A DNA stretch of 64,000 nt from the human T2T-CHM13v2.0 reference genome, Homo sapiens. The notes below the pieces were generated by a model. That model had not been told where the DNA came from, ran no database searches, and saw only the letters and a list, made by a program, of their open reading frames with translations. The DNA lies in the NCBI RefSeq assembly GCF_009914755.1, contig NC_060937.1; one strand, 5' to 3'. The stretch's first letter is position 1; each line of letters opens with the position of its first letter. Made by a program: the position numbers and the translations under genes. Positions 20,811 to 44,976 of the stretch are shown in pieces.

Positions 20811-22488
<1,678 letters not shown>

Positions 22489-22645
22489 TCATCGAACCAT
22501 TATTGCCTCACAGTAAAGCTGACTAATAAGAGAAAAGGTGTACAAATTTATTTAACCGTGTGCATGGGGAGAATCACAGAGTGATTACCCAATTTAAAAA
22601 ATAAATAAATAAAAATAAAAATAAAATAGCCTTTGCAACTAAAAA
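22489..22645 (+). other. L1 3'-transduced non-L1 sequence with further A tails
   Basis: Lies between the L1 A tail and the right TSD aaaaaagcaagaaa (22646-22659, identical to 20797-20810). Confidence 0.85.
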
Positions 22646-23319
22646 AAAAAAGCAAGAAAGATAAGAATTATGTGTATTCTTCAACCATAAAAAGGAAAGA
22701 ATTTCAAAAAGGAAGAGGTCAACAGTATAAAAATCCACGGCTCTCTAACCCCGTATTCTTTTCAATTCTTGGTGTAACAAGCCCAGCATCCTTCCTGCTA
22801 TTTTGCTGCTCTTTGCTTATTAGCCACGACCTTGAGAATCCTGGAACAATCTTTTGGATTTAATCTAATGGTGATGCAAGTTCGTTTCTTACCTTGATGG
22901 TGGAAATAGAATGTGAGTAGAGCTGGTGTGGGGTGCACTGGTGAGAAGTCCTGTCTCTTTTTCCCTTTGGGTTTTCATTTCCCCAGGTTTTATTTAAGTC
23001 ATTGCCAGGACCCTAGAAAGCAATTTAAATGTAATTATTTATTTGCAGTGATAGGTGTTTGCAATTAATAGTGGACAAAAGAATTGTGGTGAAAAAGACT
23101 TGCAGACGTAATGAGTAGCCTTCTTTCCCTGCTTCTTAACATATGCTATCTAGGCACATTGGTAACAAACACCTAAATTATATTGGAAGCTAATTTTCCA
23201 CATTTAAATGGCATAATATAATTTAGGGCCAATGTAGGCCTAAAAACGTTAGGCTTGACATTTTTCCAAGCAGCCTTGGTTTGTTTTACTGGACAATGAT
23301 TACTTGGAGTCAAGATCTG

Positions 23320-24437
23320 TACTCTGGGTATATTCATTGCTAATGGGGTGTCACTGCTGCTAGGCCCTCTCAGTGGACAGAGCTAGGAAATGTATGAGTG
23401 TTTAGTCACCCATGCATATGTAATACTTGCAATTATCTCTGTATCCATCCGTGTTTGTATAAACATATGGTTCAATATATATATATTAAACTAAACATGA
23501 ATTCATACTGTCTGAAGCTAATCCAATATCCTAGTGTTCATTCTAGCCTCAATGCCTTGCTTATTTGTAACTTTGTAACGTTCTCTGACAGGGAGAAACC
23601 TGGCTTCCATGATCTGCGGTTTATTCTCTTATTTGTTCAACCCTAGGACACATACAATGTAATTTCAGAATTGTTAACTTGTGACTCTGTAAGGAAAAAA
23701 TTAACCGAGGAGAGTATGATCCTTAGGTACAGTTCTTTTGTCTTTAGCCTTATAGTTTTCAATCAAAACATGGTTTTCCCAAGTATTTTTTTTCCTTACT
23801 TTCTCCTCCCTCCCTCCTTTCTTTTCTTTTCTCTTCTTTTTTTTCTTTCTTTCTTTTCTTTCGCGGATTTTAATTTTTTATTTATATTTTTGTTTTTGTT
23901 TTATTTTTGTTTTTTGTTTGTTTGTTTTTTGACAGGGTCTCACTCTTTCGCCAAAGCTGGAGTGCAGTGGCATGATCTCAACTCACTGCAGCCTTGACCT
24001 TCCAGACTCAAGGGACCTCAGCCTCCAGAGTTGCTGGGACTACAGGCACGTGCCACTACACCCAGCTAATTTTTGAATTTTGTGTAGAGACAGGGTTTCT
24101 CCATGTTGCCCAGGCTGGTCTCAAACTCCTGGGCTCAAACGACCCACCCCTCAGGCTCCCAAAGTGCTGGGATTAAAGGAGTGAGCCACCGTGCCTGGGC
24201 AGTTTTCCAAAGTTTAAGTCACCTCCCAATCCCTTCAGATTGTTTATATCATACATTAGTAACACTGTTAGATTTGTATGTTAGACTCTGTTCTAGTCTG
24301 GAATTCCTTGGTATCCTGGTTGATTTTTTTTTAATTTGTATACATTAGAGATCATTTTGTGTGATGTAAAGTTCTATGGGTTTTGACAAATGCTTAGAGT
24401 TATGTAAATACCACCCCAGTTTCAAATAGAACATTTT
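23320..24437 (-). mobile_element. L1MD/L1MC-type 3'UTR fragment, containing an AluJ and cut at 24437
   Basis: 'ttcattgctaatggggtgtcactgctgctaggccctctcagtggacagagctaggaaa' and 'gttctatgggttttgacaaatg'. Confidence 0.75.
23785..24199 (-). mobile_element. AluJ with long degenerate T/C-rich tail
   Basis: 'gacagggtctcactc...cactgcagccttgacct...ctcctgggctcaa'; TSD-like gttttcc(c/a)aagt near 23772 and 24202. Confidence 0.92.
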
Positions 24438-25142
24438 TTAAAAGATCTGTATCTGAAATTTATATAAAGAGATTTAGATTGTAAAAAATATGAAATAGAA
24501 ATGAAAGCCCTGTTCTGTCTTAAACCAAACTCAGTGTTTGGCTAAATTGGCATGTAAACCAGTTCTTTCTGACACCTGCAGTGAATTACCATAAACCTCA
24601 TGGAGGAGGTAGCCTTGAACAGACTCACTGAGAGTGGAACTTTAGCCTGTAATTTTTATTTTCAGTCATCTGTCGCAAGATAGGCAAACTTCTAAGAAAC
24701 GTCCCTTGTATTATTACGTCAATCTTACCAGAGGTTTTTAATTTTTTTCCAGGGCCTTGAATCTCTCGTATTTTCTTTTTTTCTCCTGCTTCCTTAAATA
24801 AAATCCAAATTCCCCAGAGAATTTTGTAAAATTCCCAATCTTACTGCAGCTTCCTCTTCTGTCTTTCTGGTCCTCTCTGTTCAATATGCACTGCTCAGTT
24901 TCCAGACCTGACAACTTTTTGTCTGGTAGCAAAAATAATGCATGATCAATAGTAAAATTGTAGAAAGAGTGGATCAAGGAAACCAGGCACCCAGAGATAA
25001 ATGGCTGGATGTCTAGAAGGAAGCTTGCTGGATCAAAGGGTATCCAAGTTTTCACAGCCTTTACATCACCAAATTGCCCTGCAGAATGGCTCTATTAATT
25101 TGCACTCTGCCAACATAGTTAATGGGCTGTAGTGTAATTGTC
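24438..25142 (-). repeat. Left arm of 705-bp inverted duplication (probably the derived copy)
   Basis: Base-by-base reverse complement of 26879-27583 with no indels; mismatches only at 24578/27443 and 24732/27289. Confidence 0.99.
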
Positions 25143-25422
25143 CATATACCAGCAGTGTAGAAGTATTCCTTTTTTACTGCATCCATGCCAACATCTATTT
25201 TTTTTATTTTTGATAATGGCCATTCTTGATAATATTTGCCATAATTCAGTATTGTCAAGACTAAGGTGGTATCACACTGTAGTTTTAATTTGCATTTCTC
25301 TAATCATTAGTGATGTTGAGCATTTTTTCATATGCTTGTTGGCCATTTGTGTATCTTCTTTTGAGAATTGTCTATTCATGTCCTTAGCCCACTTTTTGAG
25401 GAGATTCTTTGTTTTTTTCTTT
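25143..25422 (-). mobile_element. L1PB-type ORF2 3' fragment
   Basis: 'accagcagtgtagaagtattcc...catccatgccaacatcta...tgagaattgtctattcatgtccttagcccactttttga'. Confidence 0.85.
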
Positions 25423-26759
25423 AACTATTTCTTAACCATTTTAATCCTTCATGTCATTTTGTCCCTCTTCTAATTTTGACCCAACTATGGTTTTGCCAAA
25501 TACTTTTTGACTGCCAGGTGACTGTGGCTTAGATTCATTGTTTTGTAAATAATATAACTTGGCTCTCTATGAATAACTGAATATCTAAATTCATTACGCA
25601 TCAATTATTTATTAATTCAAAATATATTTACTAAGCACAGTGTAAAACAAAAACAATCCATCTTTTCAATGTTATTGATGAACACATAAAATATATGTAA
25701 ACATTGATAAAGCATAGGCTAAACTTAAATTGTTACATATAAAATCTGTAACAAAAGACACCGAAGTTTTTTGTCAGCTTGAAGTATTTGTCCACAGCTA
25801 TGTATTCGACATATGGCACATACTCAATAAATGTTTTTCATGTAAGAAAAGGTGCAGCTAAATTACTCATGTAGTTATGAGCATCATTCCCAGTAGGGAT
25901 CGTTAGAAAAATGTTTGAAATGGAAATGACATCTCAACTGGACCTTGACACATGAAATCATTCTAAGGCAAACTGTTTCCTCTTTTCCCCATAGAATTTT
26001 ATTTTTAATCTCTATCATGGCCGTTGTCTTACTATATTTTAGCTTATCTCTTCATATGCCTATCGTTTCTGTAGAATATGTAGAATGCAAGTTTATCAAT
26101 TGTTGTTCATCTTATTAAATCTTTGTATCCTTACCATAATGCATTCCTTCAAATCATAGATATTTGTTCTAGTCATGTTTAAGTAAGCTATTATGGATTT
26201 TTTTTATCTTTATAAACTCTCGTTCTTCACAAAAAAAGCATTGCAATATTTACATCATAACTTTACTGAAGATTTTGCATTCAAAGTAGATCCATTCCTT
26301 GAGGATTTTTAGAGATTTATTTATTTTTGTCCCAGAAACAAAACTATAATCTTACATAATATTTTTCAGTGATTGTCTTAGTAACATGCTCTCAAAATTT
26401 TCACCCTGAAGGAAGTTACTGAAATATCATTTACAAATATAGCTGGATTTTGGAAGATATTTATTTTAAACGTCCCTCCATACATACCCATGCATTTATG
26501 GTACTTCAGTGTTCAATGCTAAATTAACTTGAACAACACTTTCCATAGGGTTATCTAAAGCAACCTTCAAAAACGGCTGCATTTTGTATGTTAGACTTAA
26601 AAGAAAGATGTGAAACGTTACAAGAGCTTATGTGTGTGTTATCTTTTAGTGAAAAATTCTAGAATATTTTGCTGCTTTCCATACCTTATCACTCATGCAT
26701 ATATTCTATGATCTTACTTCACTTGTTTGGGGCTTCAAAGAATTTAGAGGTGGGAAAGG

Positions 26760-26895
26760 GAAGTGGGTTAATGAATGCCTATTCTATCAGGCTAAATGTT
26801 AGATGCTGGGTGGGCATTGAGAGATTAAAAAGTCCTTGAAGAGTATATACCCTAATGAGGAAAATAGATAGATAAACAGACAATTACACTACAGC
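26760..26895 (-). mobile_element. L2 fragment running into the right arm of the inverted duplication
   Basis: 'aatgaatgcctattctatcaggc...gatgctggg...gataaacagacaattacactacag' resembles the antisense L2 3' end. Confidence 0.55.
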
Positions 26896-27583
26896 CCATT
26901 AACTATGTTGGCAGAGTGCAAATTAATAGAGCCATTCTGCAGGGCAATTTGGTGATGTAAAGGCTGTGAAAACTTGGATACCCTTTGATCCAGCAAGCTT
27001 CCTTCTAGACATCCAGCCATTTATCTCTGGGTGCCTGGTTTCCTTGATCCACTCTTTCTACAATTTTACTATTGATCATGCATTATTTTTGCTACCAGAC
27101 AAAAAGTTGTCAGGTCTGGAAACTGAGCAGTGCATATTGAACAGAGAGGACCAGAAAGACAGAAGAGGAAGCTGCAGTAAGATTGGGAATTTTACAAAAT
27201 TCTCTGGGGAATTTGGATTTTATTTAAGGAAGCAGGAGAAAAAAAGAAAATACGAGAGATTCAAGGCCCTGGAAAAAAATTAAAAACCACTGGTAAGATT
27301 GACGTAATAATACAAGGGACGTTTCTTAGAAGTTTGCCTATCTTGCGACAGATGACTGAAAATAAAAATTACAGGCTAAAGTTCCACTCTCAGTGAGTCT
27401 GTTCAAGGCTACCTCCTCCATGAGGTTTATGGTAATTCACTGTAGGTGTCAGAAAGAACTGGTTTACATGCCAATTTAGCCAAACACTGAGTTTGGTTTA
27501 AGACAGAACAGGGCTTTCATTTCTATTTCATATTTTTTACAATCTAAATCTCTTTATATAAATTTCAGATACAGATCTTTTAA
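26879..27583 (+). repeat. Right arm of 705-bp inverted duplication (probable source copy; includes an L1ME-like ORF2 remnant at ~26905-27015)
   Basis: The same 105-aa ORF appears at 26966-27283 (+) and 24738-25055 (-); 'IPFDPASFLLDIQP' resembles L1 ORF2 '[14 protein letters not shown]'. Confidence 0.99.
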
Positions 27584-30500
27584 CAGTAAGTAAAATAGAG
27601 GAAACCAAACCAAAACAAAACAAAATGTGACCCACATAATGTGCTTGAAGAGAGATGAGATTTATGCCGGTGATGCAGGTGGTTGGTATATTCAGTAAAT
27701 TTGCTTTTAGTCGTGAGAAAATATAGAGAAGGCACTGTGTTTTATTTCATTTAGGAGAACATATAGAAGGCTCTGCACAGTTATTTTAATTTGAATGTTA
27801 TTGAAATAGTTCTGTGTGCATCTCACAAAATGAATAAAATATTGAATTTAAGTATAAAAATTATGGCTATGCCAAAGTTTTGGGGTTTTAAATTGGCAAA
27901 AGTATTCACAACTGTCATTATCAACACATTTTATTATGAAAGTTTCTCTGGATTTTAGAATATGGTCTTGTTTTGGACTTTAAAATGTGTGGTTGGAATA
28001 ATTGGAAGACTAGAATGGCAAGATTACATTGTTGAAAAGGCCCAAAAAATCCAAGCTAGGATACTAGGAACTTAGAAAGAGCTTTAAAAATCAGTGGTGG
28101 TATGTGTAGGATTGCCACAATTTGGTTATTCTTGGAGAAAAGATGCTGAGTGGCTGTCCCCAGTGCAGATTCTAATGGCTGTTTCCCACTGTGTTAAGTC
28201 TTGCAGCATAAAAGCCATTTGGAGGTATCAGGCTTAAGGTAAAAAACGAAAAAAAAAATTATTCTGATCTTGAAAATTTTGGCTATATTGAAGCATTATG
28301 TAGTCTCTGTCCTTTTACCTCTTGTTCTGAATGATGGCTAGCAAAACAAGGGTAAGGTACACTACCCATTCATATTGAAACTGACCTGTCCTTCATTGCA
28401 TAATGTCTATGTGACTTTCGGCCTCTTTTAACATTGATGGACAGGCATACAATGACGTTTGTAGATAGTTTGATGTCCATACATTGCCATTTTGAGCATC
28501 TGTCATTTTTTTTTTGTTTTTTTTTTTTTCATATTTTTAATCCCAAAACGATATTGCTAATAAAGTTTGGAATAGTGTACGTTTGATTCTCAAACTTCAA
28601 TTTTAGTCAGTCCATTCTGTTAACTGAGAAGAAGAAATTCTATGATTGATTTTAATTTTTTTTGTTTTGTTTTATGTGGAATACATGCTTCTAACTGGAC
28701 CTACTATGTAAATATACACATGGTACATGCATTATTCACTTTTTTTGTTTAACTCAATGATAATAAGAATGTATGTTTCCAAAGTGGAAGAGTCCAAATG
28801 TTTAGACACTGGATTATCTGTTTAGAATTCAGAAACCACAGAAAATAGATTCTAAACATATGCAGTCATATTTTAAAATATGATGAACACAACAAAGATA
28901 CATGCATAATCTGAAATTTATTTAGTTTCAAAAAGTCATTTGAGTCATTAAATGTAATAATATTTTTATTTTTAACATAGCAATAAAATGAGAAGAGGAG
29001 ACTACCAAAGTAAAAGGGAACAATAATGACTGAAATTTAGCTTGAATAAATATAGTCAAGAGTGATCTCAAACATGACAATTGATTGTCATGTAGCTTTG
29101 GAACTTAAGTATATATCTAAAAAGTAATTTTAATACTTATTAATCAAATTGTTATTTAATTAATAGGAAATTAGAAAATCGAAGACTGAAAGTTACTGAA
29201 CACAGAGATAACACCCACTAGAATTATTCATGACTGAATTTGAGATGATTCTGTCTTACGTGTTATATGGTATTTGCATTGGAACGTCTCACTAATACTA
29301 ATACCTCTTATCAGTGCAGATAGCTGCATTGACCTTAGAAGTAAAGAGATAATTTGGGGGAAATTATAGTAACACTTCAGTGATCCCTCTAAATACATCT
29401 TTCACTGTAACAAAAGAGCCTCTGTGGGGAATTAGTGACTTCGTGCCATGATTTCTGAATCGTGATACAACCTTATTGAATTTATGAAGGATGAGGTCAG
29501 AAAGCCAGACATCACTTCTAGGCTTAATAATCAGTTTGGATTTCTCATTGTGTAGAAGTAAACAAAAATGTAGTTGATTCCAGAGGTAGCAAAATTTTAT
29601 ATCTACAACTAAAAATATAATGGACCCATAAATGAACATAATTAGATCTGACCACCAAATGGCATCAGGACATTCTGACTACGGGTTGTGGCTTATGGCC
29701 AGCAGTCCATCTGGGGACCAGTCCATCTGGGGTCCACTCCATAGCATAAGTCACATGACCTGTGTAAAGCAGCTGACAGAAAAACAAAACCAAGAATGCC
29801 TTGAAACATCTTATATTTTATGAATGAATACTAGGAAGTCCTTTTTGTTTTTCTGTTCTTTGGTTTTAGGTATTTCAAAATCTGTTAAACAGGTGAGGCT
29901 GACTAGGGAAGCCAACAAATATAGCTTGTGATTTTGGACAGTTGTGTTTCCAAGTTGAGGGCACTTTTTTGATCAACTTCCAATCATTTATAAAGCAAAA
30001 GATAGTATCCAATTAGCGCAAATTTATGAAGTTTGTTTTATGTTACATGGGGATATCATAAAGAAGCATGTTTTTCATTACTGCTGAATACAGCCTGTAA
30101 GATATGCATAGCCTGATGGTCATCGTTCATTCCTACAGATATGATGCCTCTTGGCATATCTCTTAGGTGAAAGAGTTTCCCTTCTGGTAATGTCCTAGGG
30201 AAAAAGGTCACTTGTGTCCAGGAGATTAAAACCAATATTAACTTCTACAATATGTAGAGGACAGGTTAGTCTTGGAAAACACTTTTTAATTATCTGATCA
30301 TGTGGCTAGAATATGTAGGCTGATAATTAGACTACCTTGCTATCTGAACACCAGAAATCTCCCCTGAGCCCAGGCTGAGATACAGTACTTTCTTCTCTTA
30401 GATGCTTTTGGTTATAAGTTTTTTCCTGAAGTTGACAGGAACATGAAAACTACACAACATTTAATTTTTCCTTGAAGAAGTGCTTATATTTTCAGAACAC

Positions 30501-43666: not shown

Positions 43667-44976
43667 TGTTTTCATTGACACATAATAATTATACATATGT
43701 ATGAAGTACAGTGTGTTTTGATACATTTATATTTTGTGTAAAAATCAAATCAGGGCAATTTAGCATATCTATAAATTATACATTTATAATTTCCTTGTGA
43801 TGAGAACATTCAAAATTCTCTCTTTTAGCTATTTTAAAATATACAATTACAGTATTGTTTTCCATAGTCATCCTACTGTGTGACAGAACACTGGAACTTA
43901 TCCCTCCAGCCTAACTGTAACTTTGCACCCATTGACCAGTCTCTCCCCATTCCCCTTCCCCTCTCCCCTCCTCAGCCTCTGTTCTACTCTACTTCATGAG
44001 AACAGCTTCCTTAGATTCCACATATGAGTGAGATCATGTGACATTTGTCTTTCTGTGCCTACTTTATTTCATTTACCATAATGTCCTCTAAGTTCATCCA
44101 CCTTTCTGTAGATAACAGGATTTCATTCATTTTTAATGGCTGAATGGTATCTCATTGTATATATATACCATATCTTCTTTACTCATTCATCCATTGGTGG
44201 ACAGACACTTCGGTTGATTCCTTATCTTGACTATTGTGAATAGTGTCACAATAAACATGGAGGTACAGGTATCTCTCACACTTATTGCCCTTCCTTTAGA
44301 TCTATAGCCAGTAGTGAGATTGCTGGATCATACGGTAATTCTGTTTTTAATTTTTTGAGGAAACGTCATCCTGTTTTCTATAATGGCTGTACTAATTTAT
44401 ATTCCCGCTAACAGTTTCCCTTTCTCCACATCTCCACCAGCACTTGTTAATTTTGTCTTTTTGAGAATAGTCAATCTAACAGGTGTTTCATTGTGGTTTT
44501 CATTTGCATTTTGCTGATGATTAGTGATGTTCCGCATTTTTTCATAAAACTGTTACACATTTGTGTGTCTTCTTTTGAGAAATATCTTTCTGGGTCTTTG
44601 CTGATTTTTAAATTGGATTATTGGAGGTTTTTTGCTATTGAGTTGATAACGCAGACATAAATCCATGCACTTATAGCCTACTGGTTTCAACAAAAGTGCC
44701 AAGAACATACAATGGAGAAAGGACAGTGTATTCAATAAATTGTGCTGCAAAAACTGGATATTCACACAGGTAGACCCCATCTCTCACCATATACAAAAAT
44801 CAACGCATAATGGATTAAAGACTTAAATATAAGACGTGAAACAATAAAACTACCAGAAGAAAACACAGGGGAAATGCTACATGACATTGGTCTGGGCAAG
44901 GTTTTTTTGGATACAGACCCCAAAAGCACAGGCAACAAAAGCAAAAGGAGATAAATGGAGTTACATACATCAAAGT
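43667..44976 (-). mobile_element. L1MA5-8-type element with 5' inversion (~44646-44976 reads L1-sense on +)
   Basis: Antisense 3'UTR/ORF2 up to '...gctattgagttg', then sense ORF2 'cagacataaatccatgcac...acatcaaagtaa'. Confidence 0.88.

What the first reader, a model, noticed from the sequence alone, without database searches (positions are those of the whole stretch)
24438..27583. 705-bp, 99.7%-identical inverted duplication of mostly unique DNA around a 1736-bp spacer
Seen: 24438-25142 is the reverse complement of 26879-27583 (paired coordinates always sum to 52021, no indels, 2 mismatches). The arms are not a young transposon family, so this is a local duplication. Established: near-identical inverted repeats drive recurrent NAHR inversion of the spacer and gene conversion between arms, and if transcribed they form long dsRNA (ADAR substrate, MDA5/PKR ligand, back-splicing aid). 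Inference: the event is either very recent, possibly polymorphic, or older and homogenised by conversion. The predicted ~700-bp near-perfect duplex would be more perfect than typical Alu-Alu pairs.
Basis: partly seen in the sequence, partly recalled or inferred. Interest (0 to 1): 0.8.

Follow-up and report, generated by a model that had tools for sequence, protein, structure and literature searches.

The report
Young inverted duplication in a GPC6 intron
A 705-base stretch inside an intron of the human GPC6 gene has been copied recently, flipped and re-inserted 1.7 kb away; this is a known kind of small structural change that could let the DNA between the copies flip and the intron RNA fold into a long double strand, though neither effect has been shown.

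Summary
Bases 24438-25142 are the reverse complement of 26879-27583: 705 bases, 2 mismatches, no indels, sharp ends, 1736-base spacer. The whole T2T genome holds only these two copies, so this is not a transposon family.

The arm is a mosaic:
- The outer 46 bases continue an old L1 3' element that runs up to the left arm. A chr17 paralogue shows this continuity in register.
- About 520 bases in the middle are unique.
- The inner about 100-140 bases are a decayed L1 ORF2 relic.

The right arm lies in unique DNA between two A-rich flanks, with no target-site duplication and no clean poly(A).

Best reading: a recent, one-step, DNA-level templated insertion (an inverted dispersed duplication). The left arm is the likely source and the right arm the copy. 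No outgroup was available, so this direction is not proven.

Two differences in 705 bases suggest an age of about 0.3-10 million years, or an older event kept uniform by gene conversion. The flipping of the spacer and the RNA duplex (703 of 705 bases paired) are predictions only. This is an ordinary kind of variant and a clean example of it.

The parts
24438..25142 (+). Left arm of the inverted duplication (705 nt); the probable source copy
   Evidence: 703 of 705 complementary to the right arm. (only 2 places in the genome).
26879..27583 (-). Right arm (the reverse complement of the left arm); the probable derived copy
   Evidence: Its flanks are unique in the genome and hold no L1 homology.
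25143..26878 (.). Spacer of 1736 nt; it would be the loop of an RNA hairpin, or the segment inverted by recombination between the arms
   Evidence: It has no internal inverted symmetry. Bases 26450-26878 are unique in the genome.
24438..24483 (-). Outer 46 nt of the arm: the continuation of the old L1 3' element that lies to the left, in register
   Evidence: The chr17 paralogue L024 aligns 24201-24482 without a break across the arm edge, at 76% identity. In the right arm only this isolated piece (27539-27581) matches L024.
24484..25002 (.). Central part of the arm with no detectable relative anywhere in the genome
   Evidence: A genome search with 24760-25142 finds 2 of 2 candidates, both the arms themselves. 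A search with 24340-24760 finds nothing that passes 24483. There is no homology to L024 downstream of the 46 nt: score 12 against a null of 12.8 +/- 1.8.
25003..25142 (-). Inner end of the arm: a strongly decayed L1 ORF2 C-terminal relic
   Evidence: nhmmer matches profile positions 1259-1366, with E 2.5e-4 and 4.2e-4 when the arm is searched alone. tblastn with translated L1 copies hits 26914-27019 in the right arm, best E 0.002. Identity is 0.71 to the young-L1 majority and 0.65 to the old-L1 majority.
25143..25421 (-). Younger L1 ORF2 fragment that abuts the left arm. It repeats about 39 nt of L1 coordinates already present at the arm's inner end
   Evidence: 37 of 39 genomic L1 paralogues start aligning at 25147-25154. 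nhmmer gives E 1.7e-88 and places a 38-nt insertion across the arm edge. At diagnostic columns it carries the young state 44 times and the old state 5 times, of 51. The translation is shown.
23259..24437 (-). Old L1-type 3' element left of the arm, interrupted by an Alu-like insertion at about 23800-24200
   Evidence: Bases 23259-23795 and 24201-24482 align to L024 962-1756 at 76-77% identity. 39 paralogues at 70-86%. Profile hit 24207-24437, E 6.4e-47. Identity to the old-L1 majority is 0.77, equal to the mean of 9 copies.
26854..26878 (+). A-rich flank directly left of the right arm (15 of 25 bases are A)
   Evidence: Windows this A-rich make up 1.6% of the 64-kb window.
27584..27625 (+). 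A-rich flank directly right of the right arm (27 of 42 bases are A); with the left flank, the putative target tract
   Evidence: 42-nt windows this A-rich make up 0.13% of the window. The two flanks together hold 42 A in 67 bases, a density found in 0.04% of 67-nt windows.

Best explanation
This is a young, local, inverted dispersed duplication made at the DNA level in one repair or replication event. It is not a transposon and not a retrocopy.

Proposed event: a 705-base stretch (24438-25142) was copied and placed in reverse orientation into a break in an A-rich tract of unique DNA 1.7 kb downstream (between 26878 and 27584). That stretch is itself an old mosaic of an L1 3' tail piece, unique DNA and a decayed L1 ORF2 relic. 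The source stayed intact. Both new junctions are blunt, with no target-site duplication and no poly(A). This fits a templated patch joined by end-joining, or a template switch after fork collapse.

Shown:
- The structure, the copy number and the sharp ends.
- The outer 46 bases are native to the left locus.
- The right flanks are unique and A-rich.

Inferred:
- The direction, left to right, for the whole arm.
- The repair mechanism.
- The age: about 3 million years from 2 differences in 705 bases, with a range of 0.3-10 million years from my own arithmetic with a recalled mutation rate of about 0.5e-9 per base per year. The event could be younger if the copying itself was error-prone.
- The consequences. 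The pair is long and similar enough to mediate inversion of the spacer and arm-to-arm conversion. GPC6 pre-mRNA carrying both arms would fold into a 703-of-705 base-pair intronic duplex.
For: Structure. Only 2 genomic places. No homology beyond the arms.

Direction:
- The left flank and the first 46 nt of the arm form one contiguous old L1-type element. It aligns in register with the chr17 paralogue L024 over 540 + 286 nt at 76-77% identity.
- The left flank has typical divergence for that family: 0.77 against a mean of 0.77 for 9 copies.
- In the right locus the same 46 nt stand alone, between flanks that are unique in the genome and free of L1 signal at E up to 50.
- The two flanks of the right arm are both A-rich (15 of 25 and 27 of 42) and share the word AAAATAGA. 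Together they look like one low-complexity tract split by an insertion.

Not a retrocopy or transposon: the flanks abutting the arm share no duplicated bases beyond 'CA', and the right arm is followed by CAGTAAGT... rather than an A run.

Duplex: ViennaRNA pairs 703 of 705 arm bases with their mirror partner. Duplex energy is -1317.6 kcal/mol and the longest perfect run is 410 bp.

Context from papers (passages read): class 2 templated sequence insertions are break patches without target-site duplication or poly(A) (PMC5110952). Recurrent human inversions use inverted repeats from 654 bp upward (PMC6748972).
Against: No outgroup or second haplotype could be examined, so the ancestral state was never observed. 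Several points weigh against the proposed direction:
- The inner edge of the arm coincides to within 0-4 nt with the junction between the decayed L1 relic and a younger L1 fragment in the left locus. If the left arm is the source, that is an unexplained coincidence.
- 16 of 37 other paralogues of the left flank stop aligning within 5 nt of the outer edge and none passes it. Only one paralogue (chr17) shows continuity. I attribute the stops to a T6A4 run and a small indel, but that is my reading.
- The right arm ends 27 nt after the start of a TATAAA hexamer and is followed by a 64%-A stretch. This also resembles the decayed tail of an old retroposon native to the right locus.
- I found no microhomology at either junction by eye, so a microhomology-driven template switch has no direct support.
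Confidence: 0.55

Rival explanations
1. The direction is reversed. The right arm is the original, in unique DNA. The left arm is the derived copy, which replaced part of the L1-rich left locus (a dispersed duplication with a deletion at the insertion site).
For: Strong L1 homology is lost at both edges of the left arm: the profile hit ends at 24437, 16 of 37 paralogues end within 5 nt of that edge, and 37 of 39 L1 paralogues of the spacer start at 25147-25154. The arm's L1 relic and the neighbouring L1 fragment differ in age and overlap by about 39 nt of L1 coordinates, as a fresh junction would. The right arm sits in unique DNA and is followed by a tail-like 64%-A stretch after a TATAAA hexamer.
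Against: The first 46 nt of the left arm continue the flanking L1-type element in exact register, as in the independent chr17 paralogue. A foreign insert would do this only through homology-guided joining over 46 nt at roughly 75% similarity. In the right locus those 46 nt are an orphan. The left flank and the spacer-side L1 fragment are not one element: old type, 0.77 to the old majority, against young type, 44 of 51 diagnostic columns. So the idea of an L1 interrupted by the arm does not hold.
Confidence: 0.15
2. The duplication is old, or it began as two related L1 relics in inverted orientation. Repeated gene conversion between the arms keeps them nearly identical, so 0.28% divergence does not date the event.
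For: Junction-like features on both sides look ancient: in-register L1 continuity at the left outer edge, and decayed A-rich flanks with a degenerate shared 8-mer at the right arm. Arms of 705 nt at 99.7% identity are adequate conversion substrates (general knowledge; range in PMC6748972).
Against: No diverged homology remains beyond the arms. The central 520 nt are not L1 and have no other relative, so two independent L1 insertions cannot explain them. Conversion between sequences only about 70-75% alike would be strongly disfavoured (general knowledge).
Confidence: 0.15
3. An inversion made by staggered breaks or a serial template switch inverted the spacer and created the flanking inverted duplication in the same event.
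For: The left outer edge looks ancestral, as this model requires. Non-homologous human inversions often carry small gains or losses made in one complex FoSTeS/MMBIR event (PMC6748972, passage).
Against: The two A-rich flanks of the right arm look like halves of one tract. Under this model they were never adjacent. The stretch right of the right arm does not continue the spacer-side L1 fragment: no L1 signal in 27584-28100.
Confidence: 0.07
4. It is an assembly artefact, or a mobile element with 705-nt terminal inverted repeats.
For: None from the calls. Both are listed for completeness.
Against: Against a mobile element: there are only two arm copies and no third in 3.1 Gb, no target-site duplication, and the spacer end is unique. 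Against an artefact: the 3.1-kb structure is shorter than a single long read of the kind used for this assembly (general knowledge, not tested), and the two arms differ at 2 sites, so they are not one collapsed sequence.
Confidence: 0.03

Closest known systems
Class 2 templated sequence insertion (a break repaired with a copied patch), also called a dispersed inverted duplication in structural-variant catalogues
   Same: The donor is left intact. The insert has no target-site duplication and no poly(A). The junctions look like end-joining (definition in PMC5110952, passages).
   Different: Described cases draw on distant, often RNA-derived donors. Here the donor is 1.7 kb away in the same intron and the copy is inverted. 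Whether RNA or DNA was the template is unknown.
Inverted-repeat pairs that mediate recurrent human inversions by non-allelic homologous recombination (the InvFEST HsInv set)
   Same: Arm length and identity lie within the reported range: more than 90% identical, 654 bp to 24.2 kb. The ratio of arm to spacer is high (0.41), a feature that correlates with inversion frequency (PMC6748972).
   Different: No inversion is recorded here. The two chr13 inversions in PMC3961182 lie at 63 and 79 Mb in hg18. The supplements of PMC13629690 give no match to the estimated hg38 position or to GPC6. Most known pairs are segmental duplications or young transposons, not a fresh 705-nt copy.
Long, highly paired predicted intramolecular dsRNAs of the human genome (dsRNAscan)
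   Same: At 703 of 705 paired it exceeds the paper's cut-off of more than 300 bp and more than 96% paired. Only 2,018 of 5,134,754 predictions meet that cut-off (PMC11838218, section 10 read).
   Different: Most of those form between inverted LINE elements and 88% are intergenic. This one is mostly unique DNA inside a gene's intron. I could not see the paper's table of these structures, so I do not know whether this one is listed (one small file held, no match).
L1 twin-priming inversions
   Same: The scale is small. By one preprint's abstract, about 85% of human inversions under 2 kb are of this kind (10.1101/2021.12.20.472354, search listing only). L1 pieces with adjoining coordinates do occur at the left arm's inner edge.
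   Different: The arms are two copies of the same, mostly non-L1 sequence. The spacer is unique DNA. The two L1 pieces differ in age. There is no poly(A) or target-site duplication.

Membership tests
Inverted-repeat substrate for NAHR inversion | Inverted arms more than 90% identical and at least about 650 bp long | tested here: met
   705 nt at 99.7% identity. Threshold taken from PMC6748972.
Inverted-repeat substrate for NAHR inversion | Both spacer orientations are seen among haplotypes or species | not testable with these tools
   Only one human assembly is held. No record in the papers and supplements searched.
DNA transposon with terminal inverted repeats | Several copies in the genome | tested here: not met
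   2 of 2 candidates are the two arms themselves. The spacer end is unique.
DNA transposon with terminal inverted repeats | A target-site duplication flanks the whole unit | tested here: not met
   The outer flanks read ...ACATTTT and CAGTAAG..., with no shared word at the edges.
L1-mediated retrocopy (class 1 templated insertion) | A target-site duplication of at least 5 bp at both junctions | tested here: not met
   The right arm is flanked by ...ATAAACA and CAGTAAG.... Only a displaced 8-mer, AAAATAGA, is shared.
L1-mediated retrocopy (class 1 templated insertion) | A poly(A) tract directly after the insert | tested here: not met
   There is no A run. The next 42 nt are 64% A, too decayed for arms that are 99.7% alike.
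L1-mediated retrocopy (class 1 templated insertion) | A cryptic poly(A) signal 10-30 nt upstream of the insert's end | tested here: inconclusive
   A TATAAA hexamer starts 27 nt before the arm's end. Such hexamers are common in DNA this AT-rich.
Class 2 templated insertion / dispersed inverted duplication | The donor is retained; the insert has no target-site duplication and no poly(A) | tested here: met
Class 2 templated insertion / dispersed inverted duplication | An empty pre-insertion site exists in an outgroup or another haplotype | not testable with these tools
   No second genome of this lineage is held.
Segmental duplication (usual definition: at least 1 kb and at least 90% identity) | Length of at least 1 kb | tested here: not met
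   705 nt. The definition is as quoted in PMC13629690.
L1 twin-priming inversion | Two parts of a single L1 in opposite orientation, with a poly(A) tail and a target-site duplication | tested here: not met
   The arms are duplicates and about 520 of their 705 nt are not L1. The adjoining L1 pieces differ in age.
Known RNA family | A match to an Rfam model at its gathering score | tested here: not met
   0 matches in 23000-29000 on either strand.

The most novel reading that the evidence does not exclude
The pair is a human-lineage-specific and possibly still polymorphic cassette with two effects. It toggles its 1.7-kb spacer by recombination between the arms. In cells that express GPC6 it also yields one of the most perfect long intronic double-stranded RNAs of any human gene (703 of 705 bp, with a 410-bp perfect run). 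Such an RNA would be heavily edited or diced and could measurably affect GPC6 intron processing or innate-immune sensing when intron turnover fails.
Probability: 0.1. Interest if true: 0.55.

Novelty: new member of a known kind. Interest (0 to 1): 0.3.

Why it matters
It is a clean natural example of how a near-perfect inverted repeat arises from non-repetitive DNA. It has sharp blunt junctions, an identifiable probable source and a probable A-rich target. If it is polymorphic or lineage-specific, three things could be measured at a simple locus: the rate of inversion by recombination at the lower limit of arm length, arm-to-arm conversion, and the fate of a near-perfect 700-bp intronic RNA duplex. 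As it stands it is an ordinary small structural variant with no shown function.

Tried and rejected
- **A single L1 interrupted by the arm:** rejected. The left flank is old type and the spacer-side fragment is young type.
- **The arm as one uninterrupted L1 fragment:** rejected. Two L1 profiles built here detect only positions 1259-1366 inside it. The central 520 nt match neither the chr17 paralogue nor anything else in the genome.
- **L1 continuing beyond the right arm:** no hit in 26300-26878, 25422-26300 or 27584-28100 at E up to 50 with filters off.
- **Recent retrocopy of a local transcript:** rejected. There is no clean poly(A) and no target-site duplication.
- **Finding the 3' end and target-site duplication of the old L1, to test which locus owns the unique part:** failed. 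Seven of the 12 distinct relative loci that align to 22500-23800 start aligning at 23259-23260, and no T run lies there.
- **Pfam on read-through translations, with X at stops, of the right arm and the L1 fragment:** 0 families for 6 of 6 frames.
- **Rfam:** nothing.
- **Exact 39-mer from the arm in bacterial/archaeal genome contigs and in viral contigs,** hoping for stray primate DNA: 0 and 0.
- **Paper searches:** GPC6 with 'polymorphic inversion' and 'inverted repeats', 0 papers. GPC6 with dsRNA, 'inverted repeat' and ADAR, 0 papers. GPC6 with 'inverted duplication', 4 papers; by their titles and abstract starts (search listing only), two are about large 13q marker chromosomes and two about limb or skeletal disorders, none about this site.
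- **Supplement searches:** I looked for 93882-93886 and GPC6. These are estimated hg38 positions derived from recalled GPC6 coordinates, so they are approximate. No match in PMC13629690 (3 files) or PMC11838218 (1 small file). A table that writes numbers with commas would have been missed.
Full report
**Observation.** The inverted repeat is real and is placed as stated. The repeat finder on 22000-30000 reports one inverted pair: 24438-25142 against 26879-27583, 705 nt, with 1736 nt between the arms. A direct comparison finds 703 of 705 matches and no indels. The mismatches are at 24578/27443 (G against A in left-arm sense) and at 24732/27289 (A against T). Identity ends abruptly. Ungapped extension gives 16 of 79 matches outward and 20 of 79 inward. 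Gapped local alignments of the outer flanks, the inner flanks and the two spacer halves score no better than shuffled controls. Of the 20 inverted pairs of 80 nt or more in the window, the other 19 are 73-93% complementary.

**Copy number.** A search of the window's own 3.1-Gb assembly with the whole arm returns only the two arms, 2 of 2 candidates. A search with the inner 383 nt gives the same result. The 429 nt left of the right arm and the 467 nt right of it are single-copy. The arms are therefore not a repeat family, and the right arm lies in unique DNA.

**Anatomy of the left locus.**
- The 228 nt left of the arm have 39 scored paralogues at 70-86% identity, out of 259 candidates.
- The 303 nt right of the arm have 39 scored paralogues at 77-92%, out of 4610 candidates. 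37 of them start aligning at 25147-25154.
- I built two L1 profiles from these loci.
  - The profile from 19 copies places 25003-25421 on positions 1260-1618 (E 1.7e-88), with a 38-nt insertion that straddles the arm edge.
  - The profile from 9 older copies places 24207-24437 on positions 77-322 (E 6.4e-47) and 25004-25375 on positions 714-1025.
- Read with X at stops, the spacer-side fragment translates to a well-kept L1 ORF2 C-terminal stretch ending ...LLHCWYM at the arm edge.
- The arm's inner end, read from the right arm, gives ...LCWQSAN..SHSAGQFGDVKAVKTWIPFDPASFLLDIQP.
- That these stretches are ORF2 rests on tblastn with translated L1 copies (26914-27019, best E 0.002) and on my recollection of the ORF2 sequence. 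Pfam gave no family for any of the 6 frames.
- The two pieces repeat about 39 nt of L1 coordinates.

**Three L1-derived pieces of different origin.** I measured identity to the majority base of the 19 younger copies.
- The arm piece scores 0.71, against 0.86 and 0.94 for the two parts of the adjoining fragment.
- Nine older copies score 0.62-0.81 across all three regions.
- At columns where the old and young majorities differ, the adjoining fragment carries the young state in 24 of 27 and 20 of 24 columns. The arm piece is mixed: 12 young, 6 old, of 24. The arm piece is only 0.65 identical to the old majority, where old copies average 0.79.
- The left flank is a typical old copy: 0.77 against a mean of 0.77.

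So the left flank, the arm's relic and the adjoining fragment are not one L1 split by the arm. I held that reading at first and dropped it.

**The outer edge.**
- One paralogue, on chr17 (L024), aligns from 24201 to 24482 at 76% identity. It runs across the arm edge without a shift, and 35 of the 46 arm bases match.
- The same paralogue also matches 23259-23795 at 77% over 540 nt. That stretch lies on the far side of an Alu-like insertion flanked by a short duplication.
- The window and chr17 therefore share a contiguous element of about 800 nt that ends 46 nt inside the arm.
- Past that point there is no similarity: score 12 against a null of 12.8 +/- 1.8.
- In the right arm only the orphan 46 nt (27539-27581) match L024. 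Filter-free profile searches find no L1 signal on either side of the right arm.

From this I infer that these 46 nt are native to the left locus and were carried to the right.

**Evidence pulling the other way.**
- In the search with 24340-24760, none of the other 37 scored paralogues passes the outer arm edge, and 16 of them stop within 5 nt of it. In one search, 5 of 19 loci do the same. A multiple alignment shows a T6A4 run and a small deletion there, which may end local alignments, but only one locus demonstrates continuity.
- The inner arm edge coincides with the junction between the decayed relic and the younger fragment.
- The right arm ends 27 nt after the start of a TATAAA hexamer. 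It is followed by 42 nt that are 64% A, and only 0.13% of 42-nt windows in the window are that A-rich. By itself this resembles the decayed tail of an old retroposon.
- However, the 25 nt before the right arm are also A-rich (15 of 25) and share AAAATAGA with the far side. The two flanks together hold 42 A in 67 nt, a density reached by 0.04% of 67-nt windows. I read this as one low-complexity tract split by the insertion. That reading is an inference.

**Mechanism.**
- No duplicated target bases flank either arm, no A run follows the right arm, and I see no microhomology at the two right-hand junctions.
- This excludes recent L1-mediated retrocopying and transposition.
- It points to a DNA-level patch: either a copied fragment captured by end-joining at a break, or a template switch after fork collapse, with a nearby donor and inverted orientation.
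- The closest described class is the class 2 templated sequence insertion, which has no target-site duplication, no poly(A) and end-joining features (PMC5110952, passages). The local donor is a difference from that class.
- Because GPC6 is transcribed through the source, an RNA-templated patch is possible but untested.

**Age.** Two differences in 705 nt is 0.28%. With a recalled rate of about 0.5e-9 per base per year acting on two copies, this gives about 3 million years. The Poisson range for two events is 0.3-10 million years. This is my own arithmetic, not a tool result. Error-prone copying would make the event younger, and gene conversion would make it older.

**Consequences (predicted only).**
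- The arms fall within the range of repeats that mediate recurrent human inversions: more than 90% identical, 654 bp to 24.2 kb. In that study a high arm-to-inversion ratio goes with higher inversion frequency (PMC6748972, passages).
- No inversion is recorded at this site in what I could search.
- Folded as RNA, the 3146-nt plus strand pairs 703 of 705 arm bases with their mirror partners. Duplex energy is -1317.6 kcal/mol, and the perfect runs are 140, 153 and 410 bp.
- One genome-wide survey counts only 2,018 predicted duplexes longer than 300 bp and more than 96% paired. Most of them form between inverted LINEs and 88% are intergenic (PMC11838218, section 10). A mostly unique, intronic example is therefore uncommon but not unprecedented.
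- Because it is intronic, the duplex would be nuclear or part of the excised intron.
- No Rfam family matches the region.

**Verdict.** This is a genuine, young, local inverted duplication of a known kind. The probable source and target can be read from the sequence, but confirmation needs an outgroup. It is of moderate interest as a clean test locus, and no function has been shown.

Noticed in passing
window 44010-44957: An L1 whose 3' part (44010-44641, plus strand of the profile, positions 969-1623) is followed directly by an oppositely oriented, more 5' part (44636-44957, positions 1774-2104). This is the layout expected from twin priming.
   Followed up: no
window 23773-24213: An Alu-like insertion with a long T-rich, low-complexity stretch (23818-23932) splits the old L1-type element. 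A short direct repeat, GTTTTCC(C)AAGT, flanks it, and the chr17 paralogue's coordinates overlap by 24 nt across it.
   Followed up: partly
window 21034-22664: A well-kept L1 3' end in the opposite orientation (profile positions 707-2205, E 4.7e-289), followed by A-rich tracts at 22465-22664. It is 82% complementary to the L1 fragment at 25264-25421, so it is a separate insertion.
   Followed up: partly
window 23259: Seven of the 12 distinct relative loci that align to 22500-23800 start aligning at 23259-23260, although no T run lies there. The old L1-type element seems to be cut on its 3' side as well.
   Followed up: partly
L005 (C16:76720351-76723618) and L006 (C1:148002330-148005597): These two loci gave almost identical alignment coordinates and identities in every comparison. 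They probably lie in a chr1/chr16 segmental duplication.
   Followed up: no
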